The position numbers and the translations under genes were made by a program. This document shows, piece by piece, positions 2,037-20,917 of a stretch of 32,000 bases of DNA; position 1 is the first letter of the stretch, and each line of letters opens with the position of its first letter. The notes beneath the pieces were generated by a model. It saw only the letters and a list, made by a program, of their open reading frames with translations. It was not told where the DNA came from and ran no database searches. Where the stretch lies: positions 810,001 to 842,000 of the forward strand of contig JBJLBP010000001.1 of NCBI GenBank assembly GCA_045568075.1, read 5' to 3'. The DNA is from Candidatus Thalassarchaeaceae archaeon (GTDB taxonomy: Archaea > Thermoplasmatota > Poseidoniia > Poseidoniales > Thalassarchaeaceae).

Positions 2037-3086
2037 ATGTCTTACGAAAACGGGAATGCGAGGGACGTCGGACAGACCTTAGGTCTGGCTTCGACCCCAG
2101 TGGTACTTGCAGGATTACTCCTGCTCTTCATGACTGCCACATCCCTTGCTGACGAAGCGATGATTGACCAAGGAAAGTTAGTCATCCTTCCCGTAGCAGC
2201 CGCATTAGCGGCTGTTCTGGGAAGGATTTGGGTATCTGCTCTGCCAGATGATTCCTTCGCAAGCCGCACTCCAGTTGTCGCATTGCTCTTCGCAGTGGTG
2301 CCCATCATCGTTGAGTCTCTGGGCTTTATCGATTCAATCGTAGCTACAACATTCGCTTTCATGGCGATTGCTACGCTATTTTTGGTCAAGTCTAACCGAA
2401 GCGAGGAGGCAACAGTCCTCTTCTCGATGGTTGCTGGATTCCACATGGCTGTGGCTTATGCAGCTGCGATGCCGGAATTGGTTATCGCAGAGGGTGCTTC
2501 ACTACAGTCTCAATTGATCGATGTTCAGCGAGCTGGCCTCGCTGCCAACTTCTTCGCGTTCTGGGCCGCTTCGATGGTCCTCGGGACGTTCCTGGCAATC
2601 GCCTTCCGCGGCTCACTCATGACTCCTGGGTCGGGAGCTTTGTTCGCTAGATTGCCTTCGAAGATCGATGTTTCAGAACACCGAGACTTGGTCGTTACAG
2701 GAGTTGTTATTCTTCTTGTGAACTTGATTCCATTGCTATGGTTGGCAGGAATATCCGACGCGGCGATTTTCGAATCCCACCTTTATCTTGGAAGTGTCTG
2801 GGCAATGGCGACCTCGGTCATCATCATGTTCGTCGCCTTCTGCCGCGCTGAGCGCTGGCATGTGCTGGGTGCTATTGTCGCAGTCAATTGGATAATCTAC
2901 AGCTTTGCTCACTTGGTTGAGATCGGCAATGAGTTGCCTGAAGGAATCGACTTCCTATCTGGTAGTGATTTCATCGGAGCATTTTCATGGTTATTCATCA
3001 CATTCTGGTTGAATGTGCTGGCATTGATGCTGGCGGCTCGTGGTTACTTCGGTGATATCGCGCCTCGCCGCGAAGCGAGTAATTTC
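2037..3086 (+). other. N-terminal accessory membrane module (~350 aa, about 10 hydrophobic helices by eye), no recognised family
   Basis: Hydrophobic stretches include 'PVVLAGLLLLFMTATSLA', 'LVILPVAAALAAVLGRIWV', 'VVALLFAVVPIIVESLGFI', 'FFAFWAASMVLGTFLAIAF', 'VVTGVVILLVNLIPLLWLAGI', 'VWAMATSVIIMFVAFC', 'LGAIVAVNWIIYSFAHLV' and 'AFSWLFITFWLNVLALMLAA'. All precede the helix equivalent to AglB TM1. Confidence 0.55.
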
Positions 3087-6000
3087 CGCCTCTGGTGGCA
3101 GGAAAATTCCTACTCGATTCTTGTCGGTTCGGCAGTTGTGTTCGGATTTATGATTCGAACCGGATGGAATGTTCTACCAGCGATGAATGCGAATGTCACT
3201 GGACTTTGGGACATGACTGGAGGTTCCGACCCTTGGTACATGAAGCGAGTTGTCGATTACATCGTCGCTGAGCGAGCCCACTTCATCTTCGATGCAGATA
3301 GGGCCTACCCAGCTGGTGGAATCAATCCTCGACCTCCGCTTTTCTCGTGGTGTCTAGCCCTCGGTGGCTTGGCTCTGGAATGGCTCACTGGAATTCCTGC
3401 TGATGAGGTAATATGGTGGTCAGTCGCTGGATTCCCTGCTATCTTCGGAGCACTAATCGTTCTGCCAGTCGCTGGTATTGCAGCACGTCTGCACAGCACT
3501 CAGGCAGGCGTTATCGCCGCTTGGCTCATGGCTTTGATGCCAGGTCACATCAGCCACTCGACCTTTGGTCTGGCTGACCACGACTCGTTTGCGTTGCTAT
3601 TCCTAACGATGGCATTCTACTTCTGGGTACGAGCGGTTCACGATATTGGTAGTGAGCGCATGTTCCGCAATCCAGGCCCAAATCCACTCTATCTCATCGC
3701 AGGAATGCGCGAGATGTGGAAGAGGAGCCCGGTTGTCATGTCCTACGCGACCTTGGCGGGAATCAGCTTCTCGACGGTCGCACTCGGTTGGAAGGGATTC
3801 GTCTACGGACCTGGAATTCTCTTCCTTGCTTTCGCAGCTCAAATCATTGTCAACATGTTCCGTCGCCGTGACAGCTTACCCCTGACTTCGGCGACACTAC
3901 AGATGATGTTCACTACATTCTTGATTCCACTGCCGTTTTACATCTGGCCAGGTCTCAACCTGCTTTGGGCACCTAGTGGATTCCAGCCGATGTTCTACAT
4001 TGTTGGATTCACTTTTGCTCTCGGTTGGGTTGCTTCGAGCTTCCGCGACAAGCCTTGGCTGCTTGTTCTTGGAAGCGGTGGCGTGTTGTTCGGAGGAATC
4101 CTTGCGATACTTTGGATACTCCAATCGGCCGAGATTTACGATGGATGGGACATCCTATTCACTGGTGGATTCTACTTCTCGAAGAACAAGATCTTCGGAA
4201 CGATTGGTGAGGCTCAGGCCCCGAGTCGTGGCGTTCTCTTCGCCTCGTATGGGCCGATTGTCACGCTCATCGCCCTTGGATACGCGTTCATTCTGCTATG
4301 GCGTGGTGCACGCGATGAGAAGCAAGGTCAGTCCCTAGCTGGAATTTGGGTGCTCATTGCAGCATACATGGCTTGGACTGCTGGGCGTTTCATCTTCAAC
4401 GCGACACCGCCGATGGCTGTTGTCGGTGCTATCGGAATCGCCGCTCTTTGGAAGATGGCTGATTTCCAGACCTTCACCAAGGAATGGCGTCGTTCGGGAA
4501 TCGGTACTCCTCGTGCACGTTTCCGTGCAATTCGCCCGGCGAGTGCTAAGCGACCTCTAATTCCAGTTCTCATGCTAGTCTTCATGTTAGTCGCCTCTCA
4601 GCACGTCACTTACGGTGTTGATTCTGGTATTCCTCGCGGAGAGACAGCGGCCGGAGATATCGACCAAACAATCTACGACATTACACCAGATATTCTCAGG
4701 TTTGATGTCGCTGGACTTTCAGTCCTTGATAGTAGCACATACACTCCTTCGACGACCTGCAGTAATGGCTGCTGGTACATGGGAACCTTTGGTCCCGGAT
4801 TCAATGGTGGAGGATGGAATATGGCCTACGAATGGCTAGCAGAACAAGATGCTGACGAGCCATTCGGTCATCGACCAGCCTTCGTTTCATGGTGGGACTA
4901 CGGATTCCAAGCCCTCGACTCAGGAGAGCATCCAACGGTCGCTGACAACTTCCAATCAGGTATTCCTAACAGCGGAGCTATGCTGCTTTCGTCTGGTCAG
5001 GACGATACTTTGGCTATGTTCATCGCGACACTGGCTCAGGGTGACCGCAGGTATTCTTCTGACAGTGAGTTTACTGAAGAATTCTCGAATGTGCTCAACG
5101 ACCACTTCACTGAGGATCAGGTCTCTGAATTCTACCAGATAATGTCCTTCGGTCCAGGAGACAAGTCATTCGTAGAGGACCGATCACTAGCTCTCTACGC
5201 CTCCGATGTGCAGGAGGAGTACCTCGACAGTATGCTCTTCTCTCACACCACTGAACTGCTGTACGGTTCCACCCTTGGAGAGGATGGACTTCCGCTTGAG
5301 CAGATGTGGTATGTCATGTATGATGGCGAGCAGGTTGGCAATGGTACAAATGACCCATCCGTAGCTAGCACTTTGTTCGATGATACGCGAGGAGTTCTCA
5401 GTGGACAACCCCCTACCAGCATCGAAGATGCGATTGTCAGTCATTACGAAATCGGTGAATATCGATATACTGCGGACTTGATCGAAGACTTCGATGACGT
5501 CTCGACTAACCTCCACAGAGTCAATGCAAAGCTCGGTCTCGCCCGAGCATTCCTCACCTCTGCTCTCTCAACTGAACAGTTGGTAGATCTCTATCACGAT
5601 ATCAGTACATCGATGGAGTACGAGGTTCAGGATTACGAGGGAAGCCTCGGTCAGACCATAATGCGAAACAACGAGATTCGATACTTTGCAATCGATGACA
5701 GGTTGTATCCTCTCGGTGGTGCATATTACGCAGATCAGAGTTATCACCGTGGCCAAACTACAGGGATTTTCTACGCGCCTACAACACTCTCTGGATTGGA
5801 CCCTAATCATTACATCGAGTCGATTTACGAGACTCAACAAAAAGGTCAAACAAAATACATGAGTGCTGAACAGTATGAACTCGAATACATGAACGATGTC
5901 GTCAAACAGCAATCTGGAGCAATGGACGATCCAGCTGATATGATTCAACTAATCGACATCAAGTATCAGCAGACAGAGTCTTTCTTTGAGACAATGGTAG

Positions 6001-9000
6001 CACGAATCTACGTTGGATATGGCACAACAAGTCTTGGTCTTGATGTAGATCCAGCACAACCAGGCCCCACTTGGGCGATTAGTGGAACTCCGAATTCACC
6101 TCTTGAGAATGCCTTCCCGCTACCAGGGGCTATGATGAACCACTTCGTAGTCGCCAATTGGTACAACGACGGAACGGCATCTCCTGATGAGAATAACAAC
6201 AGTGTCCCAGACATCTTCGATGGTGGATATGCGGCAATCGGTCGCGCTAACACCAATGTGAAGGTCGTCAAATACTACAGCGGTGCGACCATAGAAGGTA
6301 CCGTCGAACTCGACGGTGTAGGCCCAGTTCCGAACGCTCGAATCCTAATTGAGCGTGACGCGTTCAGTGGCGAGGAAGTCGCGGATGAGAACGGAACGAT
6401 CATCGATCGTGATCAGCGAACTTACTGGATTCCGATTGGAACTGTCGATGCTGATGAGAATGGAGACTACTCTTTCATAGTGCCCGCGGGAAGAATCCGC
6501 GTCAGTGCTTTCTTCGGAGAGCCAGACCTAGATACTGCTCGCCAATTGTTGCTCTCCGGTTCTGGTGGAATGTTACAGGATGTTGCTACTGAATCTACGG
6601 TAGGTCAGCGTAATGTCAACCCCATTACTGGAATTCTTGGAAATGTCTCAGGTTCACAATGGCTCGCCGAGACCATTGTCAATGTGTCTGGTGAAGATGG
6701 ACACTCCAATGGAGAAGCTCACCTTACAGCAGACCTCTCAGTCGAGGCATCATTCTCCACCGGACGTCTTATCTGGACTGGAGATGAATTATTCGATGCT
6801 GAGGCGATTACTGACGCAGTAGTCGAGTTGAGTCCATCTTGGGATGCAATTCAGATGCAGCCGATTTCCCTCGAAACATCGACAGGTTCGGTCAGTGGAA
6901 CCGACTTGGCCTTCCAAGGAATTGGTGAGGTCACATTCACTGGCGAGGGACAGGTTACGAGCACCGGTATGCTGACTGTCAGTGATTTCGTCGGAACGCA
7001 TACTCAGACTATCCTAAATGGCCACAGTCTCGCAGGTTCCGGTGAATTCACCGGCCGCGGAACAATCTCAGGTATCATTGATGGCTCTGACGTCGTCGAT
7101 GGAGAATGTAACGAGAATGGCACTATGCCTGAGAACTTCTCAGTGTGCAGTCTAGCCGATGGAGATTTCCTCCTCGATGGTGCTGTCAACGCGACTGGTC
7201 GATTCACATCGAATGGAACCGCATCCTTCTCTCAGATTCACAACGGTTCCTCGTTGTCCGGATCAGGTATTTTCATAATTGATGCATCAAATCCAGACCT
7301 TGAGTCCTACGGGACTCTGAACGGCACTGGAACTTACACTGGAGATGGTGAGTTTAGTGGACCAATGGTTCAGGCAGGAACCTTCCATCTGACTAACGCT
7401 ATTCCTGGAGATTACGATGTTACAGTAGTCTTCTCAGATGGAACCCGCGTCGAGATTGATGATGGATTCAATGTCCCATTCAAGGGCGTTGCATCTCTGC
7501 ATCCAATCGATGTTTACGGCGGTTTGATTAGTGGCAAATTACTCGATTCAAACGAGAACCCACTAACTGGAGAAGTACAACTGAGTTTCCTGGATGAAGA
7601 GAACTCCACTTCGCAGGGAGAGTGCAGCGAAGTCATGTATGCACCGTGTCATATCACACCCGATGAGAATGGGTCGTTCACCTTTGGACCGGTTGTCCCT
7701 GGTAGTTATCTGGCTGAACTCGATATGGATGGCGACGGCTTCAACGAAGCACAGATCATCCATATCTTCGAAGCCGAATCCGATTCAGTGATGGAATTCC
7801 CAACACCGATTCCAACTACCTACGATCTTACTTTCACGCTCTCTCGTACTGTAAACGGTACAGAAACCGGCGTCAGTGACCTGAATCTCACCTTGCTCAG
7901 CACGGATACCTCGATCGCACCGGTCGATGCAGTATACGATGCAGAGAAGGGTGAATACATGGTTGAATTGAGACAAGGCGAGTGGATTCTAAGTCACACC
8001 TTTTCGGAATCTGAGCAATTGTGGGAACAGATCGAAGTAGATGCGGATATCAATACATCTTTCGTCTTCAGAGAATCAATGACCGTCTATGGTGTCGTGT
8101 ATTATGATACGAAGTCTCAGGGGTCAGGAGCCATCGGCGAGCCCGAACTCGACGAGGATGGCAACCCAGTGCTCGACGCTGAGGGCAACATAACCATCTT
8201 TACGCCCGAGGCTGTACAGTTCGGTGTAGTAGTCTTCCATTGGGAAGGATTCTCGACGACAGCTAATACTGATGGAGATGGAGTATTTTCAGTTGTTCTG
8301 CCAATTGGAGCAGAAGTCGATGCAACAGTCAGTGCAGGCGTGATGAACGTCGTCAACGGAACTCGCTTCGTAGTGACCGAGGACATGGAAGATGTCACTA
8401 TGATTGCACGTCCGGGCAGTGAGGTAAGTGGTGCTCTCAACATCAACAGATTGGGTAATTACTACAATTCGAACCTTGGAGGCTGGGAGCCAGTCACCGT
8501 CTATGCTACTCACGAGAGTATCGATGCGGTTTGGCACCTCGATGTTACCGAGATGGGAACCTTCGCAACAGTCCTCCCACAGGGTAATTGGACATTCACG
8601 ACCGACCTCACTTGGTTGAACGCGAATGAGACAGTTCTGGATGTCGATGGTAAGAATGACACCGTCAACATGTACCTCAGCCCTGATTCATCATTCGTAG
8701 AAATCGACTTCTTCCTTGATCATAACAACGACAATGATCCAGCGAATGGCACACCGGTAGAATACAGATTCTCGATTGTTCCAGTCGATAACTTCGCAGG
8801 AATGAGCGTCGATGTGGAAGCCGATGGCTCTGAGTGGACCTCAGCCGGCCATGCAGTGGTTCCGGTCGAGGCTGGCTCCTACCGCATCGATGTCGAAATC
8901 TCTGACGCGCGCGCAGGAGACTTGTTCGGTACGCGTATCATGACAGGGGACAGTTACTTCGAAGTCGGATTTGGCGGAGAAGTCGTGACTAGAAGCATCG

Positions 9001-11636
9001 GGTTTGACCCGGAGTGGAAGGTCGACTTGATCTTCACTAACGAGAGTGGTGGGCCACTTGTGGACCAGAATGTGAAATTCATCGATACCGGTAATCGAAA
9101 TGACATCATTTCGAGAACAACTGATGCCAATGGAACTATTGTCGATCACCTGCCAGCAAGTACTTGGGTTGTAGTGATTGATTCGGTCAACGCTGGCGAT
9201 GGTGTGGTAGAGGGTGTTAGAACCCTCATCGAGGTCTCGGAGGCTAACGCTAACGATGCACACACGATTTCTACAAGTGAATTGGGAACATTCTCAGTTC
9301 GCGTGCTAGACGAATCCGGTTCCCCATTGCAGGGAATGGATCTAGTAATCACATCCAACGAGGACTTGGGTAGAGTCCATCTCGACTTCACAGACGCTTC
9401 TGGAGATTCGGAAGGTTCTCTCAGCGCCGGCTCATGGAATATCGAGTTGAATCATACTGAGGTCCGCACGCGTTACGTAATTGACAACGTTGAACTCCTA
9501 GATGGCGGACTTGTGTCCGGTGATAACGGTCTGATTCAGATTGTCGCTACAACCTATGTCGAAATGTCTGGAGTCATCTTCTGGGACCACGACGATGATG
9601 ACGATGCTGATGTTGGGGAAGGAGTCCCTGATGTTGAAGTCATGATGACCAGTGAAGGCGAAGATAACATTTCTATCACTACCGATTCTACTGGAGAGTG
9701 GAATGTCTTTGTTCCATTGAATTCATCTTGGCATATCTCAACCCATAGGGATGGATTTGCTCAAGAGAATGAATCCGTGGCGATGAACGCACCGAACTCG
9801 ATTGAGATCGAACTCACAGCTGGATACGTCCCAGTCTGGGGTAACATCACTCACTCAAATCTCGCCACTATCGGCGATGATGTCGAATTGGTATTGATAC
9901 CAACCGAAGACATGGTGAGAGACCGCGTCACACCCGAGAAGATCTACGAAGATGGTGTTTGGACCGGAGAATGGTCGGCATCGGTCGAACCAGGCAATTG
10001 GATCATCAGAGCAACCCTTGAGGAATCAAACCTCGTTGCGATGGCAATGGTGAATGCTGATATCTCGGATGGAGGAAATGCTGAAGCCGCCCTCGTTTAT
10101 GGTGGATGGCTATATCTCTCCACACAGTGGCTTGATTTCGATGGTAATGCACACGATTTGTCTGAGACTGATCTAGAAGGCGCAGATATCGTAGATGAAC
10201 CAAAGTTCACGATTTCTACTGGTGCTGGTGTAGAGTGGGACGCTGTCCTCTCAGATGATGGTGGGATATCGATTCTCTTACCAAGCGGAACCATTTCTGT
10301 AGAGAGTGAGTTCTCAGTGGATCAGATGGACCGAACAATGGATTACACTTCTTCTAAGAACATCAACATTCCATCATCTGGAACGGATTTGATCGCTTCA
10401 GTGACACAGGAATTATCCTTCAATCGTGCCGTTAACCACACAATCGAATCAACAATTACCGCTGTCAGCGGTGGCGAATTGACAGTTGAAGGAGAACTCG
10501 ATGATGTCCTAGCATCAATGGGTGAGGATGATGAATACACTCCAATCGAGTTCACTTTGTCACTAGATTACCTTGGACACGAATCAGTCTCCACCTACAC
10601 CGTCGTCGGTAATGTCGTCGGTGCAGATGGACAATATTGGATGGTTGAGGCTTGGGATTCTTCGATTGAGAACTGGACTACATCGTTTTCCTTTGAGTTC
10701 GGACTAGATAGCAATAACACCACGACTTACGACAATCTCAGGCTACGAGTGTCACCCGCTAACGGCTCGACTGCTCAATCCTTTGAGGACGGTCACACGG
10801 TGGCTTTGATATTCGCAGGAACGGATGGATATCAACACGATGATGAGGTAAAGGTACGAATTCCTCAGATTCACGGCTTTGAGTTGCGTGAGGAAATGCA
10901 AGAAGTCTATGGAATCCGACCTGGAGAAGATCTCTCGATTCCAATTCTCTTCACTAATACTGGAAACGGAGATGAGCGATACACCTTCGAATTCGACGAT
11001 TCTCAGGTCCCAGATAACTGGGAACGAACCGGAGCAACCTCTCACACAATGGGTCCATTCGTCGATACGACTCACACCTTGATGGTGTTCGCACCTGCGA
11101 ACGCCACTGGTGATGAGGAATTCACTGTCACTGTCACTGTTACCGACAAGAATAACGGCAGCTACCAACCGATTGCGGTTAAGGTGAAGACCTCTCTACC
11201 GGTTCTTGAAATCAAAGAGGTATTCTCCTCGTCTGATCCGGTCTCCGACACGATACACACATTCACAGTTGTAGTTGAGAATACAGGATTAGTCGATGCT
11301 CAGCAGGTCACTTTGAATGCAACTCTACGCGGAACAGATATTCATTCTAACGCCACAAATGATGTACCTGCGGGAGAGGAAGTAACCTACATCATCGATG
11401 TAGATCTGAGAGGAATAGCACCGAGTCAACAGTGGTTCGACTTCGTGATTTCTCCAGAAGGTCAGGAGTTCATTGAACAGCCTGAAGAGATGAACAAGCG
11501 ATACACTCTGAAGACACCTCCAGTCGAGGACACTACTCCAACTACAGTCCTTGGTTTGGTGCTCATCGTGTTGCTGGCTTTGGTTATGTGGTACTTCACA
11601 AGATCTGGATCCCGTAGGCCCGGAGCTCCGTTCTGA
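2037..11636 (+). CDS. aglB: Giant (3,199 aa) membrane protein: accessory polytopic module + AglB/STT3-type oligosaccharyltransferase core + ~1,800-aa extracellular beta-sandwich array + C-terminal TM anchor
   Basis: Uninterrupted 9.6-kb ORF with an SD-led ATG. OST hallmarks appear in canonical order: 'SDPWYMKR' (D at 3228), 'ADHDS' (3576-3584), 'TIGE' = TIXE motif (4200-4211) and 'WWDYG' (4890-4904). See the sub-features. Confidence 0.9.
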   Translation: MSYENGNARDVGQTLGLASTPVVLAGLLLLFMTATSLADEAMIDQGKLVILPVAAALAAVLGRIWVSALPDDSFASRTPVVALLFAVVPIIVESLGFIDSIVATTFAFMAIATLFLVKSNRSEEATVLFSMVAGFHMAVAYAAAMPELVIAEGASLQSQLIDVQRAGLAANFFAFWAASMVLGTFLAIAFRGSLMTPGSGALFARLPSKIDVSEHRDLVVTGVVILLVNLIPLLWLAGISDAAIFESHLYLGSVWAMATSVIIMFVAFCRAERWHVLGAIVAVNWIIYSFAHLVEIGNELPEGIDFLSGSDFIGAFSWLFITFWLNVLALMLAARGYFGDIAPRREASNFRLWWQENSYSILVGSAVVFGFMIRTGWNVLPAMNANVTGLWDMTGGSDPWYMKRVVDYIVAERAHFIFDADRAYPAGGINPRPPLFSWCLALGGLALEWLTGIPADEVIWWSVAGFPAIFGALIVLPVAGIAARLHSTQAGVIAAWLMALMPGHISHSTFGLADHDSFALLFLTMAFYFWVRAVHDIGSERMFRNPGPNPLYLIAGMREMWKRSPVVMSYATLAGISFSTVALGWKGFVYGPGILFLAFAAQIIVNMFRRRDSLPLTSATLQMMFTTFLIPLPFYIWPGLNLLWAPSGFQPMFYIVGFTFALGWVASSFRDKPWLLVLGSGGVLFGGILAILWILQSAEIYDGWDILFTGGFYFSKNKIFGTIGEAQAPSRGVLFASYGPIVTLIALGYAFILLWRGARDEKQGQSLAGIWVLIAAYMAWTAGRFIFNATPPMAVVGAIGIAALWKMADFQTFTKEWRRSGIGTPRARFRAIRPASAKRPLIPVLMLVFMLVASQHVTYGVDSGIPRGETAAGDIDQTIYDITPDILRFDVAGLSVLDSSTYTPSTTCSNGCWYMGTFGPGFNGGGWNMAYEWLAEQDADEPFGHRPAFVSWWDYGFQALDSGEHPTVADNFQSGIPNSGAMLLSSGQDDTLAMFIATLAQGDRRYSSDSEFTEEFSNVLNDHFTEDQVSEFYQIMSFGPGDKSFVEDRSLALYASDVQEEYLDSMLFSHTTELLYGSTLGEDGLPLEQMWYVMYDGEQVGNGTNDPSVASTLFDDTRGVLSGQPPTSIEDAIVSHYEIGEYRYTADLIEDFDDVSTNLHRVNAKLGLARAFLTSALSTEQLVDLYHDISTSMEYEVQDYEGSLGQTIMRNNEIRYFAIDDRLYPLGGAYYADQSYHRGQTTGIFYAPTTLSGLDPNHYIESIYETQQKGQTKYMSAEQYELEYMNDVVKQQSGAMDDPADMIQLIDIKYQQTESFFETMVARIYVGYGTTSLGLDVDPAQPGPTWAISGTPNSPLENAFPLPGAMMNHFVVANWYNDGTASPDENNNSVPDIFDGGYAAIGRANTNVKVVKYYSGATIEGTVELDGVGPVPNARILIERDAFSGEEVADENGTIIDRDQRTYWIPIGTVDADENGDYSFIVPAGRIRVSAFFGEPDLDTARQLLLSGSGGMLQDVATESTVGQRNVNPITGILGNVSGSQWLAETIVNVSGEDGHSNGEAHLTADLSVEASFSTGRLIWTGDELFDAEAITDAVVELSPSWDAIQMQPISLETSTGSVSGTDLAFQGIGEVTFTGEGQVTSTGMLTVSDFVGTHTQTILNGHSLAGSGEFTGRGTISGIIDGSDVVDGECNENGTMPENFSVCSLADGDFLLDGAVNATGRFTSNGTASFSQIHNGSSLSGSGIFIIDASNPDLESYGTLNGTGTYTGDGEFSGPMVQAGTFHLTNAIPGDYDVTVVFSDGTRVEIDDGFNVPFKGVASLHPIDVYGGLISGKLLDSNENPLTGEVQLSFLDEENSTSQGECSEVMYAPCHITPDENGSFTFGPVVPGSYLAELDMDGDGFNEAQIIHIFEAESDSVMEFPTPIPTTYDLTFTLSRTVNGTETGVSDLNLTLLSTDTSIAPVDAVYDAEKGEYMVELRQGEWILSHTFSESEQLWEQIEVDADINTSFVFRESMTVYGVVYYDTKSQGSGAIGEPELDEDGNPVLDAEGNITIFTPEAVQFGVVVFHWEGFSTTANTDGDGVFSVVLPIGAEVDATVSAGVMNVVNGTRFVVTEDMEDVTMIARPGSEVSGALNINRLGNYYNSNLGGWEPVTVYATHESIDAVWHLDVTEMGTFATVLPQGNWTFTTDLTWLNANETVLDVDGKNDTVNMYLSPDSSFVEIDFFLDHNNDNDPANGTPVEYRFSIVPVDNFAGMSVDVEADGSEWTSAGHAVVPVEAGSYRIDVEISDARAGDLFGTRIMTGDSYFEVGFGGEVVTRSIGFDPEWKVDLIFTNESGGPLVDQNVKFIDTGNRNDIISRTTDANGTIVDHLPASTWVVVIDSVNAGDGVVEGVRTLIEVSEANANDAHTISTSELGTFSVRVLDESGSPLQGMDLVITSNEDLGRVHLDFTDASGDSEGSLSAGSWNIELNHTEVRTRYVIDNVELLDGGLVSGDNGLIQIVATTYVEMSGVIFWDHDDDDDADVGEGVPDVEVMMTSEGEDNISITTDSTGEWNVFVPLNSSWHISTHRDGFAQENESVAMNAPNSIEIELTAGYVPVWGNITHSNLATIGDDVELVLIPTEDMVRDRVTPEKIYEDGVWTGEWSASVEPGNWIIRATLEESNLVAMAMVNADISDGGNAEAALVYGGWLYLSTQWLDFDGNAHDLSETDLEGADIVDEPKFTISTGAGVEWDAVLSDDGGISILLPSGTISVESEFSVDQMDRTMDYTSSKNINIPSSGTDLIASVTQELSFNRAVNHTIESTITAVSGGELTVEGELDDVLASMGEDDEYTPIEFTLSLDYLGHESVSTYTVVGNVVGADGQYWMVEAWDSSIENWTTSFSFEFGLDSNNTTTYDNLRLRVSPANGSTAQSFEDGHTVALIFAGTDGYQHDDEVKVRIPQIHGFELREEMQEVYGIRPGEDLSIPILFTNTGNGDERYTFEFDDSQVPDNWERTGATSHTMGPFVDTTHTLMVFAPANATGDEEFTVTVTVTDKNNGSYQPIAVKVKTSLPVLEIKEVFSSSDPVSDTIHTFTVVVENTGLVDAQQVTLNATLRGTDIHSNATNDVPAGEEVTYIIDVDLRGIAPSQQWFDFVISPEGQEFIEQPEEMNKRYTLKTPPVEDTTPTTVLGLVLIVLLALVMWYFTRSGSRRPGAPF
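3099..6260 (+). other. AglB/STT3 oligosaccharyltransferase core (polytopic TM domain plus external catalytic domain)
   Basis: TM1 'YSILVGSAVVFGFMIRTGW' is followed by the EL1 acidic motif 'GGSDPWYMKRVVDY' (compare eukaryotic STT3 'DPYFNYR'). The second acidic motif is 'GLADHDSFALLF'. The EL5 motif is 'GTIGEAQ' (TIXE), followed by 'FVSWWDYGFQALDSGEHPTVADNFQ'. The domain ends are approximate. Confidence 0.85.
4890..4904 (+). other. WWDYG catalytic signature of STT3/AglB/PglB
   Basis: Codons tgg tgg gac tac gga are in frame with ATG 2037 (aa 952-956). Confidence 0.95.
6265..10860 (+). other. Array of prealbumin/CarboxypepD_reg-like and other beta-sandwich modules (extracellular)
   Basis: Recurrent pattern [G-x-V/L ... 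P-L/V-x-G/N-A ... T-D-x-N/D-G-x-F/Y ... P-x-G-x-Y/W]. Examples: 'IEGTVELDGVGPVPNARILIERD..DENGDYSFIVPAGRIRV', 'ISGKLLDSNENPLTGEVQLSF..DENGSFTFGPVVPGSYLAEL', 'VRVLDESGSPLQGMDLVITS..DASGDSEGSLSAGSWNIEL' and 'GVIFWDHDDDDDADVGEGVPDVEVMMTS..TDSTGEWNVFVPLNSSWHI'. Fold assignment is by motif resemblance only. Confidence 0.6.
10864..11410 (+). other. Two CARDB/DUF11-like modules typical of archaeal surface proteins
   Basis: 'IRPGEDLSIPILFTNTGNGDERYTFEFDD...EEFTVTVTVTDKN' and 'IHTFTVVVENTGLVDAQQVTLNATL...PAGEEVTYIIDVDL'. Confidence 0.45.
11541..11597 (+). other. C-terminal TM anchor followed by a short basic tail
   Basis: 'PVEDTTPTT' linker, then 'VLGLVLIVLLALVMWYF', then 'TRSGSRRPGAPF' and stop. Confidence 0.8.
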
Positions 11637-11720: not shown

Positions 11721-12956
11721 ATGGCTCTTGAAAAACTAGAGTTGATGCCCGAGCCAGAGGACTCACGAATACTCACGGCAGTTGACTCGGAAGCACCCGG
11801 TTATTCCGGGGCGGATTACGGCTTGACCGATCAAGAGGCTAGGGAATTACGTTGGCCACTAGGGCCTATGAAGAAGTTCCTTTGGCCCTGGGGCGGGGTG
11901 AGTTTCGCCATCGGTACGGTTCTGTTGCTGATTAGTTGGCATTCCATCCAAGCTTACCTTTGGCCCTTCTTACCCGATTCCGAATGGGCCTTTGAGAGCA
12001 CGGGAATTCGTGAACTCCAAGATGAGGGTTACTTCGGTTCCGGAGTTCACGTCTGTATCGTCGATACCGGAATCGATGGCGATCACCCGGACTTTGAGAA
12101 CCTAAATCTCGTTGGCTTCCGTGATTTCTACGACGGTAACGATGCAGACATACGAGATGTCGGTAATGATTACCATGGAACGCTAATGGCCGGTCTCTTA
12201 GTTGCCAACGGTACCTATACTGGCGCGGCTCCTGAAGTTGATCTCTCAGTGGCTATTGCCCTCGGTCCCGAAGGAAAATCAGGACAGGCCGACCGTGTTG
12301 CACTAGCCATTAGATGGTGTCGAATCACTCAGGAAGCGGACATTATCAGCTTGAGTTTAGGAGGCGATCCTGGGGGCGGAATGAGCAGCCTTCAATCCGA
12401 AACCGTCGAAGCGGTCAATGAGGCGCTTGATGCAGGAATATTTGTCATCGCAGCAGCCGGAAACAACGGAATGAAGGCTGGTGTCAATGATGTATCAATT
12501 CCAGCCAACATCCCTGGAGTAATTGCTGTCGGAGCGTCGACAATTAACGGTGGCGTCTGGTTGAATAGTTCCGTAGGTTCCACAATTGACCCATATTCAG
12601 GAGAGGAACGATCCTTCCCGAATCAGAAGCCAGAGGTTCGAGCTCCAGGAGTGAAAATGTTCTCCACCGCGTCAACTGATATTCAACCACCATACGCCTA
12701 TTCGACGGGCAGCTCCGATTCAACAGTAATCGTAGTCGGTGCCCTTTCTTTAATCCTCGAAATTCATGGCGAGGAAATGAGGGGAGATGACGGAGTTTTC
12801 GATGCCGGAGAAATGGAGCAGGTCAAGCGCGCTTTGGCCACATCGTCTTTGGTTTCACAGGAAGAAGAAGCATCTCATCACAATAAGAGAGGGTATGGTA
12901 ATCTAGATGCTGTCGAATGGTTGAAACAGGTCGAATTCGAATTCAATATAACCTAA
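11721..12956 (+). CDS. Membrane-anchored subtilisin-like serine protease (peptidase S8)
   Basis: Asp 'VCIVDTGIDGDHPDF', His 'DYHGTLMAGLL', oxyanion Asn 'AAAGNNG'. The Ser region 'STGSSDSTVIVVGALSLIL' aligns to GTSMAxPHVAGAAALIL. N-terminal 'MKKFLWPWGGVSFAIGTVLLLISW' is a signal-anchor. 'GGTGGAT' lies 6 nt upstream of the ATG. Confidence 0.85.
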   Translation: MALEKLELMPEPEDSRILTAVDSEAPGYSGADYGLTDQEARELRWPLGPMKKFLWPWGGVSFAIGTVLLLISWHSIQAYLWPFLPDSEWAFESTGIRELQDEGYFGSGVHVCIVDTGIDGDHPDFENLNLVGFRDFYDGNDADIRDVGNDYHGTLMAGLLVANGTYTGAAPEVDLSVAIALGPEGKSGQADRVALAIRWCRITQEADIISLSLGGDPGGGMSSLQSETVEAVNEALDAGIFVIAAAGNNGMKAGVNDVSIPANIPGVIAVGASTINGGVWLNSSVGSTIDPYSGEERSFPNQKPEVRAPGVKMFSTASTDIQPPYAYSTGSSDSTVIVVGALSLILEIHGEEMRGDDGVFDAGEMEQVKRALATSSLVSQEEEASHHNKRGYGNLDAVEWLKQVEFEFNIT

Positions 12957-13057: not shown

Positions 13058-16000
13058 ATGATGAGCGAGCGAGCAAGAAGTCACTTCCTAGTGATGTTGA
13101 TGCTGATGAGCACCACAGTGGCTCTGATTGGGCCAGCAACACCAGTCTCAGCGACCAATGAGACAACCGGTGGGACAATCACTGGAACCGAGACTTGGAG
13201 TGGATCTCACCAGATAACTGACGATGTCTCAGTGGCCGCTGGAGCTAAGCTAATTATCGAACCTGGAACTACAATCACTTTCCCAAATGGGACCATGCTA
13301 GATGTTCGGGGTAATCTTTGTGCAGGTGTCTCGGCTTGTGGAGCCAGCGGCAACGCCGGTGCGAATAATCCAATCACTCTGACATGGACAGAACCTGCGG
13401 TTTCTAACGCAACAGGTGAATGCTACGGACTTGGGTCTGGGAACTCCAAGATTTGGATTCGCGATTCTTCTTGTGGAGAAGGAGTGATTCTGCGAGATTC
13501 GATGGATCTTTCAGAATCCGGAATGAGAAACATGCATTTCAACGGTGCTTGGGGAATTCCCTTCTACGTCCAACTCGAGTACGAATATCGCTATGGAGCG
13601 TTGGTTATAGACGGTGCTAGCCCTACGCTCCGTGGAATGAAATTCAATGATATCAACACGACTAGCGTCCTCGCCACCAATCTTGCTCAACCTACTTTCA
13701 TCGGTGGCGAGTATGTTGCTGGCAACGATGAGCGAAGTGGAGTCACGGGCCAAGCGGTCCAAGTTTATGGTGGAGGAACTCCGATATCGCCGATGATTTT
13801 TGAAGGTGCATCGTTCCAATCAACCAACAAGGGCTGTGGGAATCGCGACGGTGGTCGCTCGGCAATCTGGGCTTCGCAGACTTTCATTCGTATCGACGAT
13901 TCAGAAGTGACCAATGGTGATTTCGGATTCAGTATCCGAAACTCTGCTGGAAAGATTACTAATTCATCCCTCACGGTTGATTGTAATGGAATCGATGTCA
14001 ACAGTCTCAAGGCGGTTGGAGATACAGAATACAACGTCGAAATTGCCTTCAACACGATTTCAACCACTGAAAAGACCCCAATAACAGTCTACGCTGGAGC
14101 GGATGTCGATATTCACGACAATGTTTTGGAAGGAGCTGGTGATGGCTCGGGAATTGCAGTCTATTCCGCAAAGGCAGCGATTCACAACAACGTAATTGGC
14201 CCCATCGGCGGTTGGAACGGTCTCTGGCTTCTAGGATCCTACGATGTGATTGCTGAGAATAATACCATCTTCGACACCGCCAAGGAACCTGTGCTGGCTG
14301 GTGAGTATGGTTCTCAAGCCCCTAATCCTACTACAGCACGCCTCTACCTCGCCAACAATTCGATTTCCACGGCTGGGGCTGGAGCATGCTCTTCCAACAC
14401 CTGGTGGGATGGTCCATTCACTTGTCCGGCTATTATGGCTCACAGGGCTGGCGTCACCATCGTCGACAACATCATCGACGCCGGAGGGAATGCTGACGGC
14501 ATCCGTTCAACAGGAAGTCTCCTCGATGTCCGTCGAAATACCTTCAATGTGCAAGCAACTGGTGCGGTTATCCAACATTATGAACGAGGAGACACTTCAC
14601 AGCAATATGGAAGCCTCGCTTTCTTCAGCAACAATGTCTGGAACGGAGTCGAAGTCACGTACAATATCTCAAAGTCCTCGGTTACAGTTCAATCCGAGTA
14701 CATCCCGAGCCCTCCTCCTGGCCAATTCCCTGTGATTCTCAGTTGGGATGACCAGGAGGCATGGTATCAGAATGAGTGGCAGAATGGGGTCATTGCTCAC
14801 GAAGTCAGGGCTTGCCCTTCCTGTGATGACTACACTCCCCGCAACTTCCCTCTAGCGTTGAATATGGACAATAATTCGACAATATTCACCTTCTCTAACT
14901 TGTCGAATCTCGATCTATCTAAGGTGAAGATCAACACACAACCTACTCATTATGCGGTTCAGGTTCAGCGTGCTGAGTTGGTGCGCTTCCAGACTCTCGT
15001 CAATGGTCAGCGAGTGGAAAATGTGAATGTGTTGATTGAAGACGCGCACGGAAATGATTTGTACAGTCTTGAGACTGATGCTGATGGTTACACTCCGTGG
15101 TTCTCTTTGGCTTCGAATTTCCATCTCGATTTCAGAGGCTTAGCTGGTGGAGACAATCCAGACGGCTTTGCAGATGATGAATACGAAGATTCGTGTTCCG
15201 ACGGAGAGGACAATGACGGTGACCTTCTTTTCGATACTGAAGATCCAGATTGCGATTACTCCACCGGAACTCGCGAACTTTCCCTCTACCGATATACAGC
15301 GTATCGTTTCGGGTATGGAATTGACTCTGGAGAATTTACTCTAACCGATACGACTTACCAAGACACACTTTTCCTCGAAAACGCGGCTCCTTCAGTCTCT
15401 GTTATCCAAGAGGATGGGCACTCTTTCCGACGCGTGTTGAACCTCACTGGTTCAGCCTTTGACGGAACTTGGGCTGGAATTTATGAGAGTGATGAATTGG
15501 CTCAATGGGACCAGAAGGGCTACGTTCACGCTGTCGAGATTAAGGATCCATTCACCAGCGATTGGAGCGGTGCTGGTCACGCGACAGATGCAAGTGGAGC
15601 TGCACCTGAATATGTCTCTCGCAATAATCATCCATTCAGCAACTGGTACTACAATTTCGACATGTCCGGTCGTCAAGAGGGTGACTACACATTCGAGTTC
15701 CGCTCATTCGACGGCCTCGAGTATTCACCAATCATCACTCGTACAATCAAGGTCAATACCGAGGCTCCTTCAGTGAGTGTGACCTCACCGAGCTCATATT
15801 CGACCCATTCTGATGGGACGGTGACCTTCGAAGGGAGTGCCCATGACCCGTATGGCTGCCCCTTCGATTGCGGTTCTGACATAGATCAAATATACATCCA
15901 GATAGATGGACCAAATTACAACGTTGTCACCTCTACTGAAGGCTCTAACGAGTGGTCATGGACGTGGGATTTCAGTGGGTTACCCCGCGAACTCGCGACT

Positions 16001-17296: not shown

Positions 17297-17357
17297 TGAG
17301 TCAAGACGGTCCGCTCCGCGGATACTTTCTTGAGTGGCACGAATTGCTCACCGGTTA

Positions 17358-20826: not shown

Positions 20827-20906
20827 GCCAAGTGTCTCCCCCAGATGTCCGAACGACGCTCCATCATCGTCATAAGTCAAGCAAGAGCGCTCGCGATTGT
20901 CCAGAC

Positions 20907-20911
20907 GAGGT
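20907..20911 (+). promoter_or_regulatory. Shine-Dalgarno-like GAGGT
   Basis: 'acGAGGTcatatcATG', 6 nt before ATG 20918. This supports ATG 20918 over the TTG 20897 listed in the ORF track. Confidence 0.4.
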
Positions 20912-20917
20912 CATATC

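What the first reader, a model, noticed from the sequence alone, without database searches (positions are those of the whole stretch)
2037..11636. 3,199-aa AglB oligosaccharyltransferase fused to a ~1,800-aa surface array and re-anchored by a C-terminal TM helix
One uninterrupted 9.6-kb ORF carries the hallmarks of a catalytically competent STT3/AglB enzyme in canonical order: EL1 'SDPWYMKR', 'ADHDS', EL5 'TIGE' (TIXE motif) and 'WWDYG'. Characterised AglB/PglB/STT3 catalytic subunits are roughly 600-1,100 aa. Here the external domain runs on without a stop into many prealbumin/CarboxypepD_reg-like sandwiches and two CARDB-like modules. It ends in a Thr/Pro linker, a TM helix and a basic tail. 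The enzyme would therefore be pinned to the membrane at both ends with a giant extracellular loop. That suggests the OST is itself an envelope or S-layer-like structural component, or that it works on a built-in scaffold. I know of no described example of this architecture.
Basis: partly seen in the sequence, partly recalled or inferred. Interest (0 to 1): 0.8.

Follow-up and report, generated by a model that had tools for sequence, protein, structure and literature searches.

The report
Giant double-anchored archaeal oligosaccharyltransferase
This 9.6-kb gene of a marine group II archaeon encodes the enzyme that attaches sugar chains to surface proteins, fused to a long, re-anchored chain of beta-sandwich domains rich in glycosylation sites. 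The fusion is real and is the normal form of the enzyme in hundreds of related archaeal species, but I found no paper that describes it.

Summary
Window 2037..11636 (+) is one uninterrupted 3199-aa ORF with a significant STT3/AglB core (Pfam 63 bits; TIGR04154 161 bits; best solved relative A. fulgidus AglB-L). The catalytic motifs D398, D514-H-D516, T722-I-G-E725 and W952-WDYG are invariant in 112 full-length homologues. It is not an assembly artefact. More than 100 independent proteins of 3122-3338 aa from Marine Group II (Poseidoniales) share the whole architecture down to 40% identity, in conserved synteny. A shorter version (2000-2800 aa) occurs in at least 534 species-level Thermoplasmatota genomes.

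An AlphaFold model of aa 1401-2600 (pLDDT 86.6) is a string of prealbumin/CnaB-type beta-sandwiches. The array carries 36 sequons against about 16 expected. It ends in a TM helix and a basic tail with an invariant ...RRPxAPF end.

My best reading is an active AglB that carries its own heavily N-glycosylated, fixed-length surface arch. The function of the array is inferred, not shown. No paper describing this architecture was found, although database entries exist under automatic names. I rate it a new variant of a known kind, of moderate to high interest.

The parts
2037..11636 (+). Whole gene: 3199-aa giant AglB (stop codon included)
   Evidence: ORF list and translation. A near-identical protein, P0001, and more than 100 full-length homologues exist.
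2037..3071 (+). N-terminal extension, aa 1-345: 10-helix membrane bundle, MGII-specific, unknown function
   Evidence: Hydropathy. AF2 pLDDT 84.6, pTM 0.83, 10 helices. K+R count 13 inside against 1 outside. Invariant E123, R191, E272, W274, W285, G297 and F323. No Pfam hit at E<=10. No PDB fold match. Absent from non-MGII loci.
3099..4616 (+). STT3/AglB transmembrane catalytic domain, aa ~355-860
   Evidence: PF02516 63.1 bits. TIGR04154 160.6 bits over aa 362-986. Aligned to AfAglB-L residues 7-291.
3219..3248 (+). EL1 motif GGSDPWYMKR (aa 395-404), catalytic D398
   Evidence: Invariant in 112 homologues. Aligns to GGNDPWYYYR of AfAglB-L and to FDPWFNYR of yeast Stt3.
3576..3584 (+). Second acidic motif D514-H515-D516
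   Evidence: Invariant. Aligns to the NDHH motif of AfAglB-L and to the DNE motif of yeast Stt3.
4200..4211 (+). EL5 TIXE motif T722-I-G-E725
   Evidence: T, I and E are invariant and G is present in 111/112 homologues. Aligned to SVSE of yeast Stt3 in a low-scoring stretch.
4890..4904 (+). WWDYG motif aa 952-956, followed by the invariant TVADNFQSGIP
   Evidence: Invariant. Aligned to WWDYG of AfAglB-L, AfAglB-S2 (3vgp) and yeast Stt3.
4617..6266 (+). External AglB domain, aa 861-1410, with a poorly conserved acidic insert (aa ~1000-1200)
   Evidence: Weak AglB_core-like hit at aa 949-986. Conservation profile.
5676..5801 (+). Nearly invariant block aa 1214-1255, IRYFA(V/I)D(N/D)RL(Y/F)PLGG...D..YH.GQTTGIF.APT.LSGL: candidate position of the DK/MI-type Ser/Thr-pocket element
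   Evidence: Column counts. The same block is present in the consensus of non-MGII giants. The assignment is by inference only.
6267..11486 (+). Extracellular array aa 1411-3150: about 17 beta-sandwich-type domains, acidic, sequon-rich
   Evidence: AF2 model of aa 1401-2600 is all-beta, pLDDT 86.6. Foldseek matches the TIE protein, SpyCEP, Gram-positive pilins, SdrD B and alpha2-macroglobulin. The array has 36 sequons against 16.1+-3.4 expected. Weak internal similarity.
6285..6515 (+). First sandwich domain, aa ~1417-1493. Its 100-aa window (aa 1401-1500) is the best-conserved stretch outside the catalytic core (mean identity 0.76), and the domain is shared with non-MGII giants
   Evidence: Conservation profile. 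Model strands. Shared consensus LKYYxGA...G.V...G.P..G.RV.
6888..7475 (+). Gly/Ser/Thr-rich region aa ~1618-1813 with GxGxFxG-type repeats, modelled with very long strands (up to 42 residues); includes the invariant Cys pair C1691/C1704
   Evidence: AF2 secondary structure. Invariant columns of A1.
9615..9815 (+). CarboxypepD_reg domain aa 2527-2593 (the only array domain above the Pfam cutoff)
   Evidence: PF13620 41.6 bits against a cutoff of 32.3.
10833..11441 (+). Two CARDB-like modules aa ~2933-3135 (N.TGNGD and ENTGLVDA signatures)
   Evidence: Sub-threshold CARDB, DUF11 and choice_anch_T hits. CARDB is above cutoff at the equivalent position in P0152 and P0204.
11499..11633 (+). Thr/Pro linker (aa 3155-3168), TM helix (aa 3169-3187) and cytoplasmic basic tail TRSGSRRPGAPF with an invariant APF end
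   Evidence: Hydropathy. Tail conservation. No sorting-domain model hit.
11721..12956 (+). Neighbour: membrane-anchored (TM aa 53-71) subtilase S8, syntenic in MGII only
   Evidence: Pfam 118 bits. TM. Synteny. Absent beside non-MGII giants.
13058..17296 (+). Neighbour: 1412-aa secreted Beta_helix/Big_7 protein with a C-terminal TM and an acidic tail, syntenic in MGII

Best explanation
This is the AglB oligosaccharyltransferase of a Marine Group II (Poseidoniales) archaeon, in the giant form that is normal for that order.

Shown:
- An STT3/AglB core (aa ~355-1410) in which every catalytic motif tested is intact.
- It is preceded by an MGII-specific 10-helix membrane domain.
- It is followed, in the same polypeptide, by about 1,740 aa of prealbumin/CnaB-type beta-sandwich domains, a TM helix and a basic cytoplasmic tail.
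- The whole arrangement is conserved in length and order across more than 100 MGII lineages. Without the N-terminal domain, it is conserved across much of Thermoplasmatota.

Inferred:
- The core transfers glycans from a dolichol-phosphate-linked donor to Asn-X-Ser/Thr sites of exported proteins, as other AglBs do.
- The array lies outside the cell, tethered at both ends. It is itself heavily N-glycosylated, because its sequons are twice as frequent as its composition predicts.
- It acts as a fixed-length glycoprotein arch, that is, a built-in envelope or glycocalyx element that also keeps the enzyme inside the surface layer it glycosylates.
- The conserved C-terminal helix and its ...RRPxAPF tail most likely dock back onto the enzyme's own membrane domain or onto a cytoplasmic partner.
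For: - ORF and motifs.
- STT3 homology: PF02516 63 bits, TIGR04154 161 bits, AfAglB-L E=1.4e-12 and yeast/human STT3. D398, DHD514-516, T/I/E of TIGE and WWDYG are invariant in 112 homologues.
- Fusion conserved: 112 full-length proteins of 3122-3338 aa (median 3171, SD 47) down to 40% identity, from ENA, JGI, NCBI, Tara and fosmids.
- The junction window aa 1401-1500 is the best-conserved stretch outside the core, at 0.76 mean identity.
- Synteny is identical in L001 and L002.
- Wider family: dozens of 50%-identity clusters of 2000-2775 aa carry names such as Thermoplasmata, Methanomassiliicoccales and DHVE2. Of 60 complete loci, 56 have at least 1200 aa after WWDxG and 55 end in a TM helix plus basic tail. 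Apparent short relatives are mostly fragments or split genes: five of ten checked lie on contigs under 7 kb (two named 'partial'), and four share a cluster with a 2108-2201-aa protein.
- Array fold: AF2 pLDDT 86.6, all-beta, with Foldseek hits to the TIE protein, pilins, SdrD B and alpha2-macroglobulin. There is a weak NOMO2 hit.
- Extracellular character: a 2.2-fold sequon excess with 0 of 1000 shuffles reaching it, invariant Cys pairs and a DxDxDG loop, and an acidic composition.
- Topology: K+R 13 inside against 1 outside for the N-terminal domain, and a basic tail after the last helix.
- In situ transcription of an MGIIb aglB is reported (PMC9723583).
Against: - No experiment bears on activity, glycosylation of the array, or its structural role.
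- The DK/MI Ser/Thr-pocket motif could not be located with confidence.
- The score against the curated archaeal AglB model TIGR04154 (161 bits) is far below its 450-bit cutoff, so the core is a divergent branch.
- I could not test whether MGII genomes also carry a second, canonical-size AglB. If they do, the giant protein need not be the working OST.
- Nothing shows lattice formation or that the protein stays in one piece.
- Length conservation and sequon richness would also fit a scaffold or an adhesin.
Confidence: 0.55

Rival explanations
1. Built-in accessory subunit. The array and its C-terminal TM helix act in cis like the non-catalytic subunits of the eukaryotic OST (type I membrane proteins with lumenal beta-domains and one C-terminal helix). 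They would hold, shield or present nascent exported polypeptides to the active site, rather than serving as an envelope component.
For: The first sandwich domain directly after the AglB external domain lies in a window as conserved as the catalytic core (0.76), and it is shared with non-MGII giants. The C-terminal helix and tail are strongly conserved, with an invariant APF end. Domain number and length are fixed. The resemblance to eukaryotic OST subunits rests on my own knowledge of those structures, not on a test here.
Against: No Pfam hit to ribophorin, OST48 or Swp1 families was seen at E<=0.1. About 17 domains is far more than a substrate-handling module needs. The distal domains evolve faster (0.32-0.5 identity) and are sequon-rich, as expected of exposed surface protein.
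Confidence: 0.2
2. Polyprotein. The gene is translated as one chain so that the array is exported and glycosylated next to its own enzyme. The chain is then cut, by the neighbouring membrane-anchored subtilase or, in relatives, by an archaeosortase at the C-terminus. This would release or lipid-anchor a separate surface (S-layer-like) glycoprotein and leave a normal-sized AglB.
For: A type II-anchored S8 subtilase lies directly downstream and is syntenic in MGII. Some non-MGII homologues end in PGF-type signals that reach or approach the cutoffs of the Loki-CTERM, Heimdall-CTERM and PGF_CTERM models.
Against: The subtilase is not next to the gene in any of the 82 non-MGII loci examined. The window protein's C-terminus hits no sorting-domain model and has no PGF motif. 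No conserved linker or cleavage-like low-complexity segment lies at the junction; instead the junction window is the best-conserved stretch of the array. MGII gene order is conserved well beyond this cluster, including CarS and PurD upstream, so adjacency is weak evidence.
Confidence: 0.15
3. Adhesin or substrate-capture appendage. The array is a stalk for binding particles, polymers or other cells, as in Gram-positive pilins and MSCRAMMs, and is merely carried by the AglB membrane domain as an anchor.
For: The best fold matches are adhesin and pilin stalks. MGII loci are rich in giant secreted proteins.
Against: No recognisable binding head domain was found in the Pfam scan of the whole protein or in the modelled part, aa 1401-2600. 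Both ends are membrane-anchored, which is unusual for a reaching adhesin. Length and domain order are fixed across lineages, unlike typical variable-repeat adhesins.
Confidence: 0.08
4. Assembly or annotation artefact: a chimeric join or a missed stop or frameshift near nt 6.2 kb.
For: None found.
Against: More than 100 independent full-length homologues from different projects and assemblers share the junction. The junction window is highly conserved at the protein level. Synteny is identical in L001 and L002. Most complete loci in other Thermoplasmatota are also fused.
Confidence: 0.01

Closest known systems
Archaeoglobus fulgidus AglB-L (PDB 3WAJ/3WAK, 5GMY, 7E9S; 868-875 aa) and other characterised AglB/PglB/STT3 catalytic subunits
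   Same: Homologous membrane domain and WWDYG core (E=1.4e-12 with the family profile). The same metal and acceptor motifs are present: GG(S/N)DPWY, DH(D/H), TIXE and WWDYG. The layout is the same, a TM domain followed by an external domain. Variable peripheral units after the central core are a known feature of AglBs (PMC3703281).
   Different: Three to five times longer. It has about 1,740 extra residues of beta-sandwich domains, a second membrane anchor at the C-terminus and, in MGII, 10 extra TM helices at the N-terminus. The DK/MI motif was not identified. It scores below the cutoff of the curated archaeal model TIGR04154 (161 against 450 bits).
2000-2800-aa 'STT3 / carboxypeptidase regulatory-like domain-containing' proteins of Thermoplasmata, Methanomassiliicoccales, DHVE2 and MGIII MAGs (database entries only)
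   Same: Same family (30-37% identity over the core). They share the same motifs, the same first sandwich domain, the CarboxypepD_reg array, C-terminal CARDB modules and a TM helix plus basic tail.
   Different: They lack the 10-TM N-terminal extension. They are about 500-1100 aa shorter. Their tails lack the ...RRPxAPF end, and a minority carry PGF-type sorting signals. Their gene neighbourhood differs.
Eukaryotic NOMO (BOS complex subunit; PDB 9C7V)
   Same: A rod of tandem transthyretin/CarboxypepD_reg-like sandwiches on the non-cytoplasmic face, ending in a single C-terminal TM helix and a short tail. There is a weak profile hit (E=9e-4), and relatives give NOMO-family Pfam hits.
   Different: NOMO is a separate protein, not fused to an enzyme. 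The similarity is at the level of a widespread domain clan and does not show common ancestry of the architecture.
Gram-positive pilin and MSCRAMM stalks, and the B. anthracis TIE protein (CnaB/SdrD-B/prealbumin-like domain strings)
   Same: These are the best structural matches of the modelled array: tandem small beta-sandwiches forming an extended surface stalk.
   Different: Those are sortase-anchored bacterial wall proteins with binding heads, often with isopeptide bonds. Here both ends are in the membrane of an archaeon and no head domain is seen.
PGF-CTERM / archaeosortase A substrates such as haloarchaeal and methanogen S-layer glycoproteins
   Same: A large, acidic, sequon-rich extracellular glycoprotein ending in a Thr/Pro-rich linker, a hydrophobic helix and a basic tail. 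Some non-MGII homologues have a literal PGF motif.
   Different: The window protein has no PGF motif and no sorting-domain model hit. Its tail is longer and carries its own conserved motif. Lattice formation is unknown.

Membership tests
STT3/AglB/PglB oligosaccharyltransferase (GT-C, Pfam PF02516) | Significant match to the STT3 family model above the curated cutoff | tested here: met
   PF02516 63.1 bits against 24.5, aa 370-626. The same domain is precomputed in all 120 homologues listed by the homologue search.
STT3/AglB/PglB oligosaccharyltransferase | Catalytic acidic residue in external loop 1 (first DXD-type motif) | tested here: met
   D398 in GGSDPWYMKR aligns to GGNDPWYYYR of AfAglB-L and FDPWFNYR of yeast Stt3. 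It is invariant in 112 homologues.
STT3/AglB/PglB oligosaccharyltransferase | Second acidic (DXD/DXH/DXE) motif | tested here: met
   D514-H-D516 aligns to NDHH of AfAglB-L and DNE of yeast Stt3. It is invariant.
STT3/AglB/PglB oligosaccharyltransferase | TIXE/SVSE motif in external loop 5 | tested here: met
   T722-I-G-E725 has T, I and E invariant. It lies opposite SVSE of yeast Stt3 in a low-scoring alignment stretch.
STT3/AglB/PglB oligosaccharyltransferase | WWDXG motif in the external domain | tested here: met
   WWDYG at aa 952-956 is invariant. It aligns to WWDYG of AfAglB-L, AfAglB-S2 and Stt3.
STT3/AglB/PglB oligosaccharyltransferase | DK or MI motif on the kinked helix (Ser/Thr pocket) | tested here: inconclusive
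   No alignment reaches it. A nearly invariant block at aa 1214-1255 is a candidate. The motif is known to be hard to find without a structure (PMC3703281).
STT3/AglB/PglB oligosaccharyltransferase | 13-TM membrane domain, N-in, catalytic domain outside | tested here: inconclusive
   The hydropathy scan finds multiple hydrophobic segments in aa 355-860 but does not give a reliable count. The region was not modelled.
STT3/AglB/PglB oligosaccharyltransferase | Transfer of a lipid-linked glycan to Asn of a sequon | not testable with these tools
   Needs an enzyme assay or complementation.
TIGR04154 archaeo_STT3 (archaeosortase A system-associated AglB subfamily) | Score at or above the curated cutoff (450 bits) | tested here: not met
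   160.6 bits over model positions 3-571 of 831. The protein is related but is not a member of that subfamily.
PGF-CTERM / archaeosortase sorting signal | C-terminal PGF (or related) motif plus helix plus basic tail that matches a sorting-domain model | tested here: not met
   The window C-terminus gives 0 hits at E<=1 and has no PGF. Some non-MGII homologues reach Loki-CTERM (24.6 against 19.9) or Heimdall-CTERM (24.2 against 24) and approach PGF_CTERM (21.6 against 24.5).
CarboxypepD_reg / prealbumin-like beta-sandwich (PF13620) | Model match above cutoff, and the fold | tested here: met
   41.6 bits against 32.3 at aa 2527-2593. Relatives score up to 191 bits with 4 copies. The AF2 model and Foldseek matches agree.
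CARDB (PF07705) | Model match above cutoff | tested here: not met
   14 bits against 22.7 at aa 3055-3123. The cutoff is met at the equivalent position in P0152 (33.7 bits) and P0204 (24.4 bits), so the module is probably a divergent member.
S-layer protein | Self-assembly into a two-dimensional lattice covering the cell | not testable with these tools
   No sequence test exists. There was no hit to known S-layer families.

The most novel reading that the evidence does not exclude
In Poseidoniales, and in many other Thermoplasmatota whose envelope proteins are unknown, the giant AglB may itself be a principal envelope glycoprotein. In this reading the N-glycosylating enzyme, its main glycosylated product and a fixed-height surface spacer are one polypeptide. 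It is doubly anchored, and its C-terminal helix and MGII-specific 10-TM domain form a single membrane machine, possibly coupling glycan-donor supply to transfer. That would be an OST organisation unlike any described so far.
Probability: 0.15. Interest if true: 0.8.

Novelty: new variant of a known kind. Interest (0 to 1): 0.6.

Why it matters
AglB is the signature enzyme of archaeal N-glycosylation, and every characterised example is a protein of roughly 600-1,100 aa. Here the enzyme of the most abundant planktonic archaea in surface oceans, and of a large part of the phylum Thermoplasmatota, is a 2,000-3,300-aa protein. It carries its own glycosylation-site-rich surface array and a second membrane anchor. 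If the array is structural, it gives a first concrete candidate for the cell-surface architecture of these uncultured organisms. It would also be a likely target for their viruses and grazers. If the array assists catalysis, it is a single-chain counterpart of the multi-subunit eukaryotic OST. Either way it defines testable constructs: the core alone against the full-length protein. It also exposes an uncharacterised 10-TM domain tied to glycosylation.

Tried and rejected
1. Chimeric assembly or a hidden stop: rejected because of the conserved full-length homologues and the conserved junction.
2. N-terminal extension as a duplicated STT3 membrane domain: hhalign found nothing.
3. N-terminal extension as a known transporter or flippase: no Pfam hit at E<=10, no NCBIfam hit, and no PDB fold match (best E=1.1).
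4. N-terminal extension as a separate gene next to non-MGII giants: no hit in 5145 ORFs of 84 loci except the two MGII loci.
5. C-terminal anchor as a PGF-CTERM signal: no model hit for this protein.
6. Recently expanded tandem repeat array: internal similarity is only marginal and length is nearly fixed.
7. The subtilase and beta-helix genes as universal partners: they are MGII-only.
8. The same APF tail on other surface proteins nearby: none found.
9. Short (600-1300 aa) relatives as evidence for unfused orthologues: of ten checked, five lie on contigs under 7 kb (two named 'partial'), four share a cluster with a 2108-2201-aa protein, and one is visibly split into three pieces on a single contig.
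11. One literature search returned only noise.
12. The first N-terminal alignment was too large to submit for structure prediction and was rebuilt smaller.
Full report
**1. The observation**

The window contains one uninterrupted ORF at 2037..11636 on the + strand, 3199 aa with an ATG start. G+C stays at 0.47-0.53 across it, with no compositional break near the proposed junction.
- SDPWYMKR at aa 397-404
- ADHDS at aa 513-517
- TIGE at aa 722-725
- WWDYG at aa 952-956

Hydropathy shows many helices up to about aa 860, none from there to aa 3168, and a single strong helix at aa 3169-3187. That helix is preceded by TPPVEDTTPTT and followed by TRSGSRRPGAPF.

**2. Identity of the core**

Pfam STT3 scores 63.1 bits against a cutoff of 24.5 over aa 370-626. 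The NCBIfam archaeal AglB model TIGR04154 scores 160.6 bits over aa 362-986, which is well below its 450-bit subfamily cutoff. A profile of the family finds A. fulgidus AglB-L (3waj/5gmy) at E=1.4e-12, and also AfAglB-S2, yeast Stt3 and human STT3A/B.

In those alignments:
- GGSDPWYMKR lies on GGNDPWYYYR (AfAglB) and FDPWFNYR (yeast).
- DHD lies on DHH and DNE.
- TIGE lies on SVSE.
- WWDYG lies on WWDYG.

D398, D514-H-D516, T722/I723/E725 and WWDYG are invariant in 112 full-length homologues, as is the following TVADNFQSGIP. The DK/MI element of the Ser/Thr pocket could not be placed. Its authors note that it is hard to find without a structure (PMC3703281). A nearly invariant block at aa 1214-1255 is my candidate, by inference only.

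**3. The fusion is real and old**

A search of 5.8 billion proteins returned a near-identical protein and more than 100 full-length relatives. Their identity ranges from 76% down to 40% over 98-100% of the query. They come from ENA, JGI, NCBI, Tara and fosmid-derived UniRef entries, with names such as 'uncultured marine group II/III euryarchaeote' and 'Candidatus Poseidoniales archaeon'.

The 112 full-length proteins are 3122-3338 aa long, with a median of 3171 and an SD of 47. Every 100-residue window is conserved. The window aa 1401-1500, just after the supposed junction, has 0.76 mean identity, as high as the catalytic core.

Two distant members (41-44% identity) sit in identical gene order: CarS, PurD, giant AglB, S8 subtilase, a roughly 1420-aa beta-helix protein, a STAND/TPR ATPase, an MBL on the opposite strand, and a roughly 1900-aa protein. 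CDP-archaeol synthase upstream confirms an archaeon.

**4. The architecture extends far beyond MGII**

An exhaustive HMMER search with aa 341-1420 found 887 cluster representatives. After the MGII-type proteins come dozens of proteins of 2000-2775 aa at 30-37% identity, in which STT3 starts at the N-terminus. Their source names are Thermoplasmata or Ca. Thermoplasmatota MAGs, annotated 'carboxypeptidase regulatory-like domain-containing protein', 'GT family 39' or 'dolichyl-diphosphooligosaccharide-protein glycosyltransferase'.

A scan of one genome per species found at least 534 genomes encoding a relative. The top 80 include Methanomassiliicoccales, DHVE2, Ca. Halarchaeoplasma, Natronoplasma, Saliniplasma and Poseidoniia. 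Of 60 loci with a complete 3' end, 56 have at least 1200 aa after WWDxG and 55 end in a hydrophobic helix plus basic tail.

These proteins carry up to four strong CarboxypepD_reg domains (191 bits), SdrD_B, and a C-terminal CARDB domain above cutoff. They share with MGII the motifs, the aa 1214-1255 block and the first sandwich domain.

Apparent short relatives are mostly fragments or split genes. Of ten checked, five lie on contigs under 7 kb (two named 'partial'), and four share a 90%-identity cluster with a 2108-2201-aa protein. One is visibly split into three pieces on a single 1.48-Mb contig. MGIII entries are among them.

**5. The array**

AlphaFold2 with a 57-sequence alignment modelled aa 1401-2600 at mean pLDDT 86.6. 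The model is almost entirely beta, with about a dozen sandwich-sized units (my own count from the strand pattern). A Gly/Ser/Thr-rich stretch at aa ~1618-1813 has strands of up to 42 residues.

Foldseek against the PDB gives the B. anthracis TIE protein, SpyCEP, Gram-positive pilins (SpaA, RrgB, BcpA, PitA), SdrD B domains and alpha2-macroglobulin. All of these are strings of CnaB/prealbumin/MG-type sandwiches. The family profile also touches NOMO2 weakly (E=9e-4).

The domains are barely similar to one another. This is an old, fixed set, not an expanding repeat.

The array has invariant Cys pairs (C1691/C1704 and C1863/C1871) and an invariant DxDxDG loop (D1896, D1898, D1900, E1904). It is acidic. 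It holds 36 N-X-S/T sequons against 16.1+-3.4 in composition-preserving shuffles, and none of 1000 shuffles reached the observed number. The membrane part and the AglB external domain are not enriched. Homologues carry 33-63 sequons.

The two C-terminal CARDB-like modules are sub-threshold in this protein but are above threshold in relatives at the same position.

**6.

Residues 1-345 form an extra membrane domain.
- AF2 gives a compact 10-helix bundle, with pLDDT 84.6 and pTM 0.83.
- Lys and Arg fall 13 inside against 1 outside for an N-in/C-in topology, which delivers the chain correctly to STT3 TM1.
- E123, R191, E272, W274, W285, G297 and F323 are invariant down to 22% identity.
- It has no Pfam hit at E<=10, no NCBIfam hit and no PDB fold match (best E=1.1, TM<=0.22).
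- It has no similarity to the STT3 helices.
- It is absent from all non-MGII loci, including the 2 kb upstream of each.

Its function is unknown.

**7. The C-terminus**

In all MGII-type homologues the last helix is followed by (Y/L)(F/L)T(R/K)...RRPxAPF, with an invariant APF end. A deeper clade ends in ...PF or ...RF. The window protein's tail hits no sorting-domain model, and no other ORF in the window, L001 or L002 carries it.

A minority of non-MGII homologues have literal PGF or PSF motifs. Some of these tails reach the Loki-CTERM or Heimdall-CTERM cutoffs and approach the PGF_CTERM cutoff. In those lineages the anchor may be an archaeosortase signal. In this protein it is not demonstrably one.

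**8. How it most likely works**

Shown:
- a conserved single polypeptide made of a 10-TM domain, the STT3/AglB core, about 17 sandwiches, a TM helix and a basic tail
- intact catalytic motifs
- sequon enrichment confined to the array

Established knowledge: STT3-family enzymes have a cytoplasmic N-terminus and an external C-terminal domain, and they transfer lipid-linked glycans to Asn-X-Ser/Thr.

Inferred: the array is outside the cell, tethered at both ends, and N-glycosylated, by its own core or by neighbouring copies. It acts as a fixed-length glycoprotein arch within the cell surface. The conserved terminal helix and tail dock to the enzyme's own membrane domain or to a cytoplasmic partner.

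Rivals are a cis-acting accessory 'subunit', a polyprotein that is cleaved, and an adhesin stalk. The cleavage idea rests on the adjacent membrane-anchored subtilase, which is syntenic only in MGII.

An MGIIb aglB is transcribed and enriched in situ (PMC9723583, supplementary file 6). I could not verify that the gene in that study is the giant one.

**9. Comparison with the known, and novelty**

By its tested defining features the core is an AglB, of a divergent branch. The fused array with a second anchor, and the N-terminal bundle, are not features of any characterised AglB, PglB or STT3.

Nine full-text searches found no description. They combined AglB, STT3 or oligosaccharyltransferase with MGII, Poseidoniales, Thermoplasmatota, Methanomassiliicoccales, Aciduliprofundum, PGF-CTERM or domain names. 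A recent review of archaeal N-glycosylation does not mention such forms in the passages I searched. Subscription-only surveys of AglB diversity could not be searched.

The sequences themselves are public and automatically named. I therefore rate this a new variant of a known kind. It is widespread, conserved and apparently undescribed, with a role for the array and the extra membrane domain that remains to be shown.

**10. Limits**

- I did not model aa 346-1400 or aa 2601-3199.
- I did not count the STT3 helices.
- I could not test for a second AglB in MGII genomes.
- I had no raw reads.

Noticed in passing
window 2037-3071 (aa 1-345 of the same ORF): An MGII-specific 10-helix membrane domain sits in front of the STT3 domain. 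It is confidently modelled, has invariant charged residues (E123, R191, E272), and has no detectable sequence or PDB-fold relatives.
   Followed up: yes
window 11598-11633 (aa 3188-3199): The cytoplasmic tail TRSGSRRPGAPF has an APF end that is invariant in all 112 MGII-type homologues. It matches no known sorting-signal model and is not shared by neighbouring surface proteins.
   Followed up: partly
window 11721-12956: A subtilase S8 with a single TM helix at aa 53-71 (type II anchor, catalytic domain outside) lies directly downstream. It is syntenic in MGII loci L001 and L002 but is not found beside non-MGII giant AglBs.
   Followed up: partly
window 13058-17296 and 20897-26650: Two further giant secreted proteins are syntenic in MGII. 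One is a 1412-aa Beta_helix/Big_7 protein with a signal peptide, a C-terminal TM helix and an acidic tail. The other is a 1917-aa protein with no Pfam hit (weak CglD/TSP3-like similarity). NosD/Big_7 proteins also lie within 10 kb of the giant AglB in L003 and L004.
   Followed up: partly
window 17334-19886: An 850-aa STAND-type NTPase (AAA_16) with TPR repeats lies between the surface-protein genes. It is conserved at this position in L001 and L002. Its role is unknown.
   Followed up: no
L003 1-6512 and 6529-9762: In a Thermoplasmata MAG, an 8356-aa gene (running off the locus) and a 1077-aa PKD/Ig gene lie immediately upstream of the 2449-aa AglB, in the same orientation.
   Followed up: no
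window 28468-29484: A single 338-aa ORF combines pyroglutamyl peptidase (Peptidase_C15) and NUDIX domains, which is an unusual pairing.
   Followed up: no
P0252/P0321/P0322 (cluster): On a 1.48-Mb contig, the giant AglB of a Thermoplasmata genome is called as three consecutive pieces (954, 663 and 597 aa). This is probably a set of frameshift errors in a long-read assembly, and it warns that short 'AglB' entries in this clade are often fragments.
   Followed up: partly
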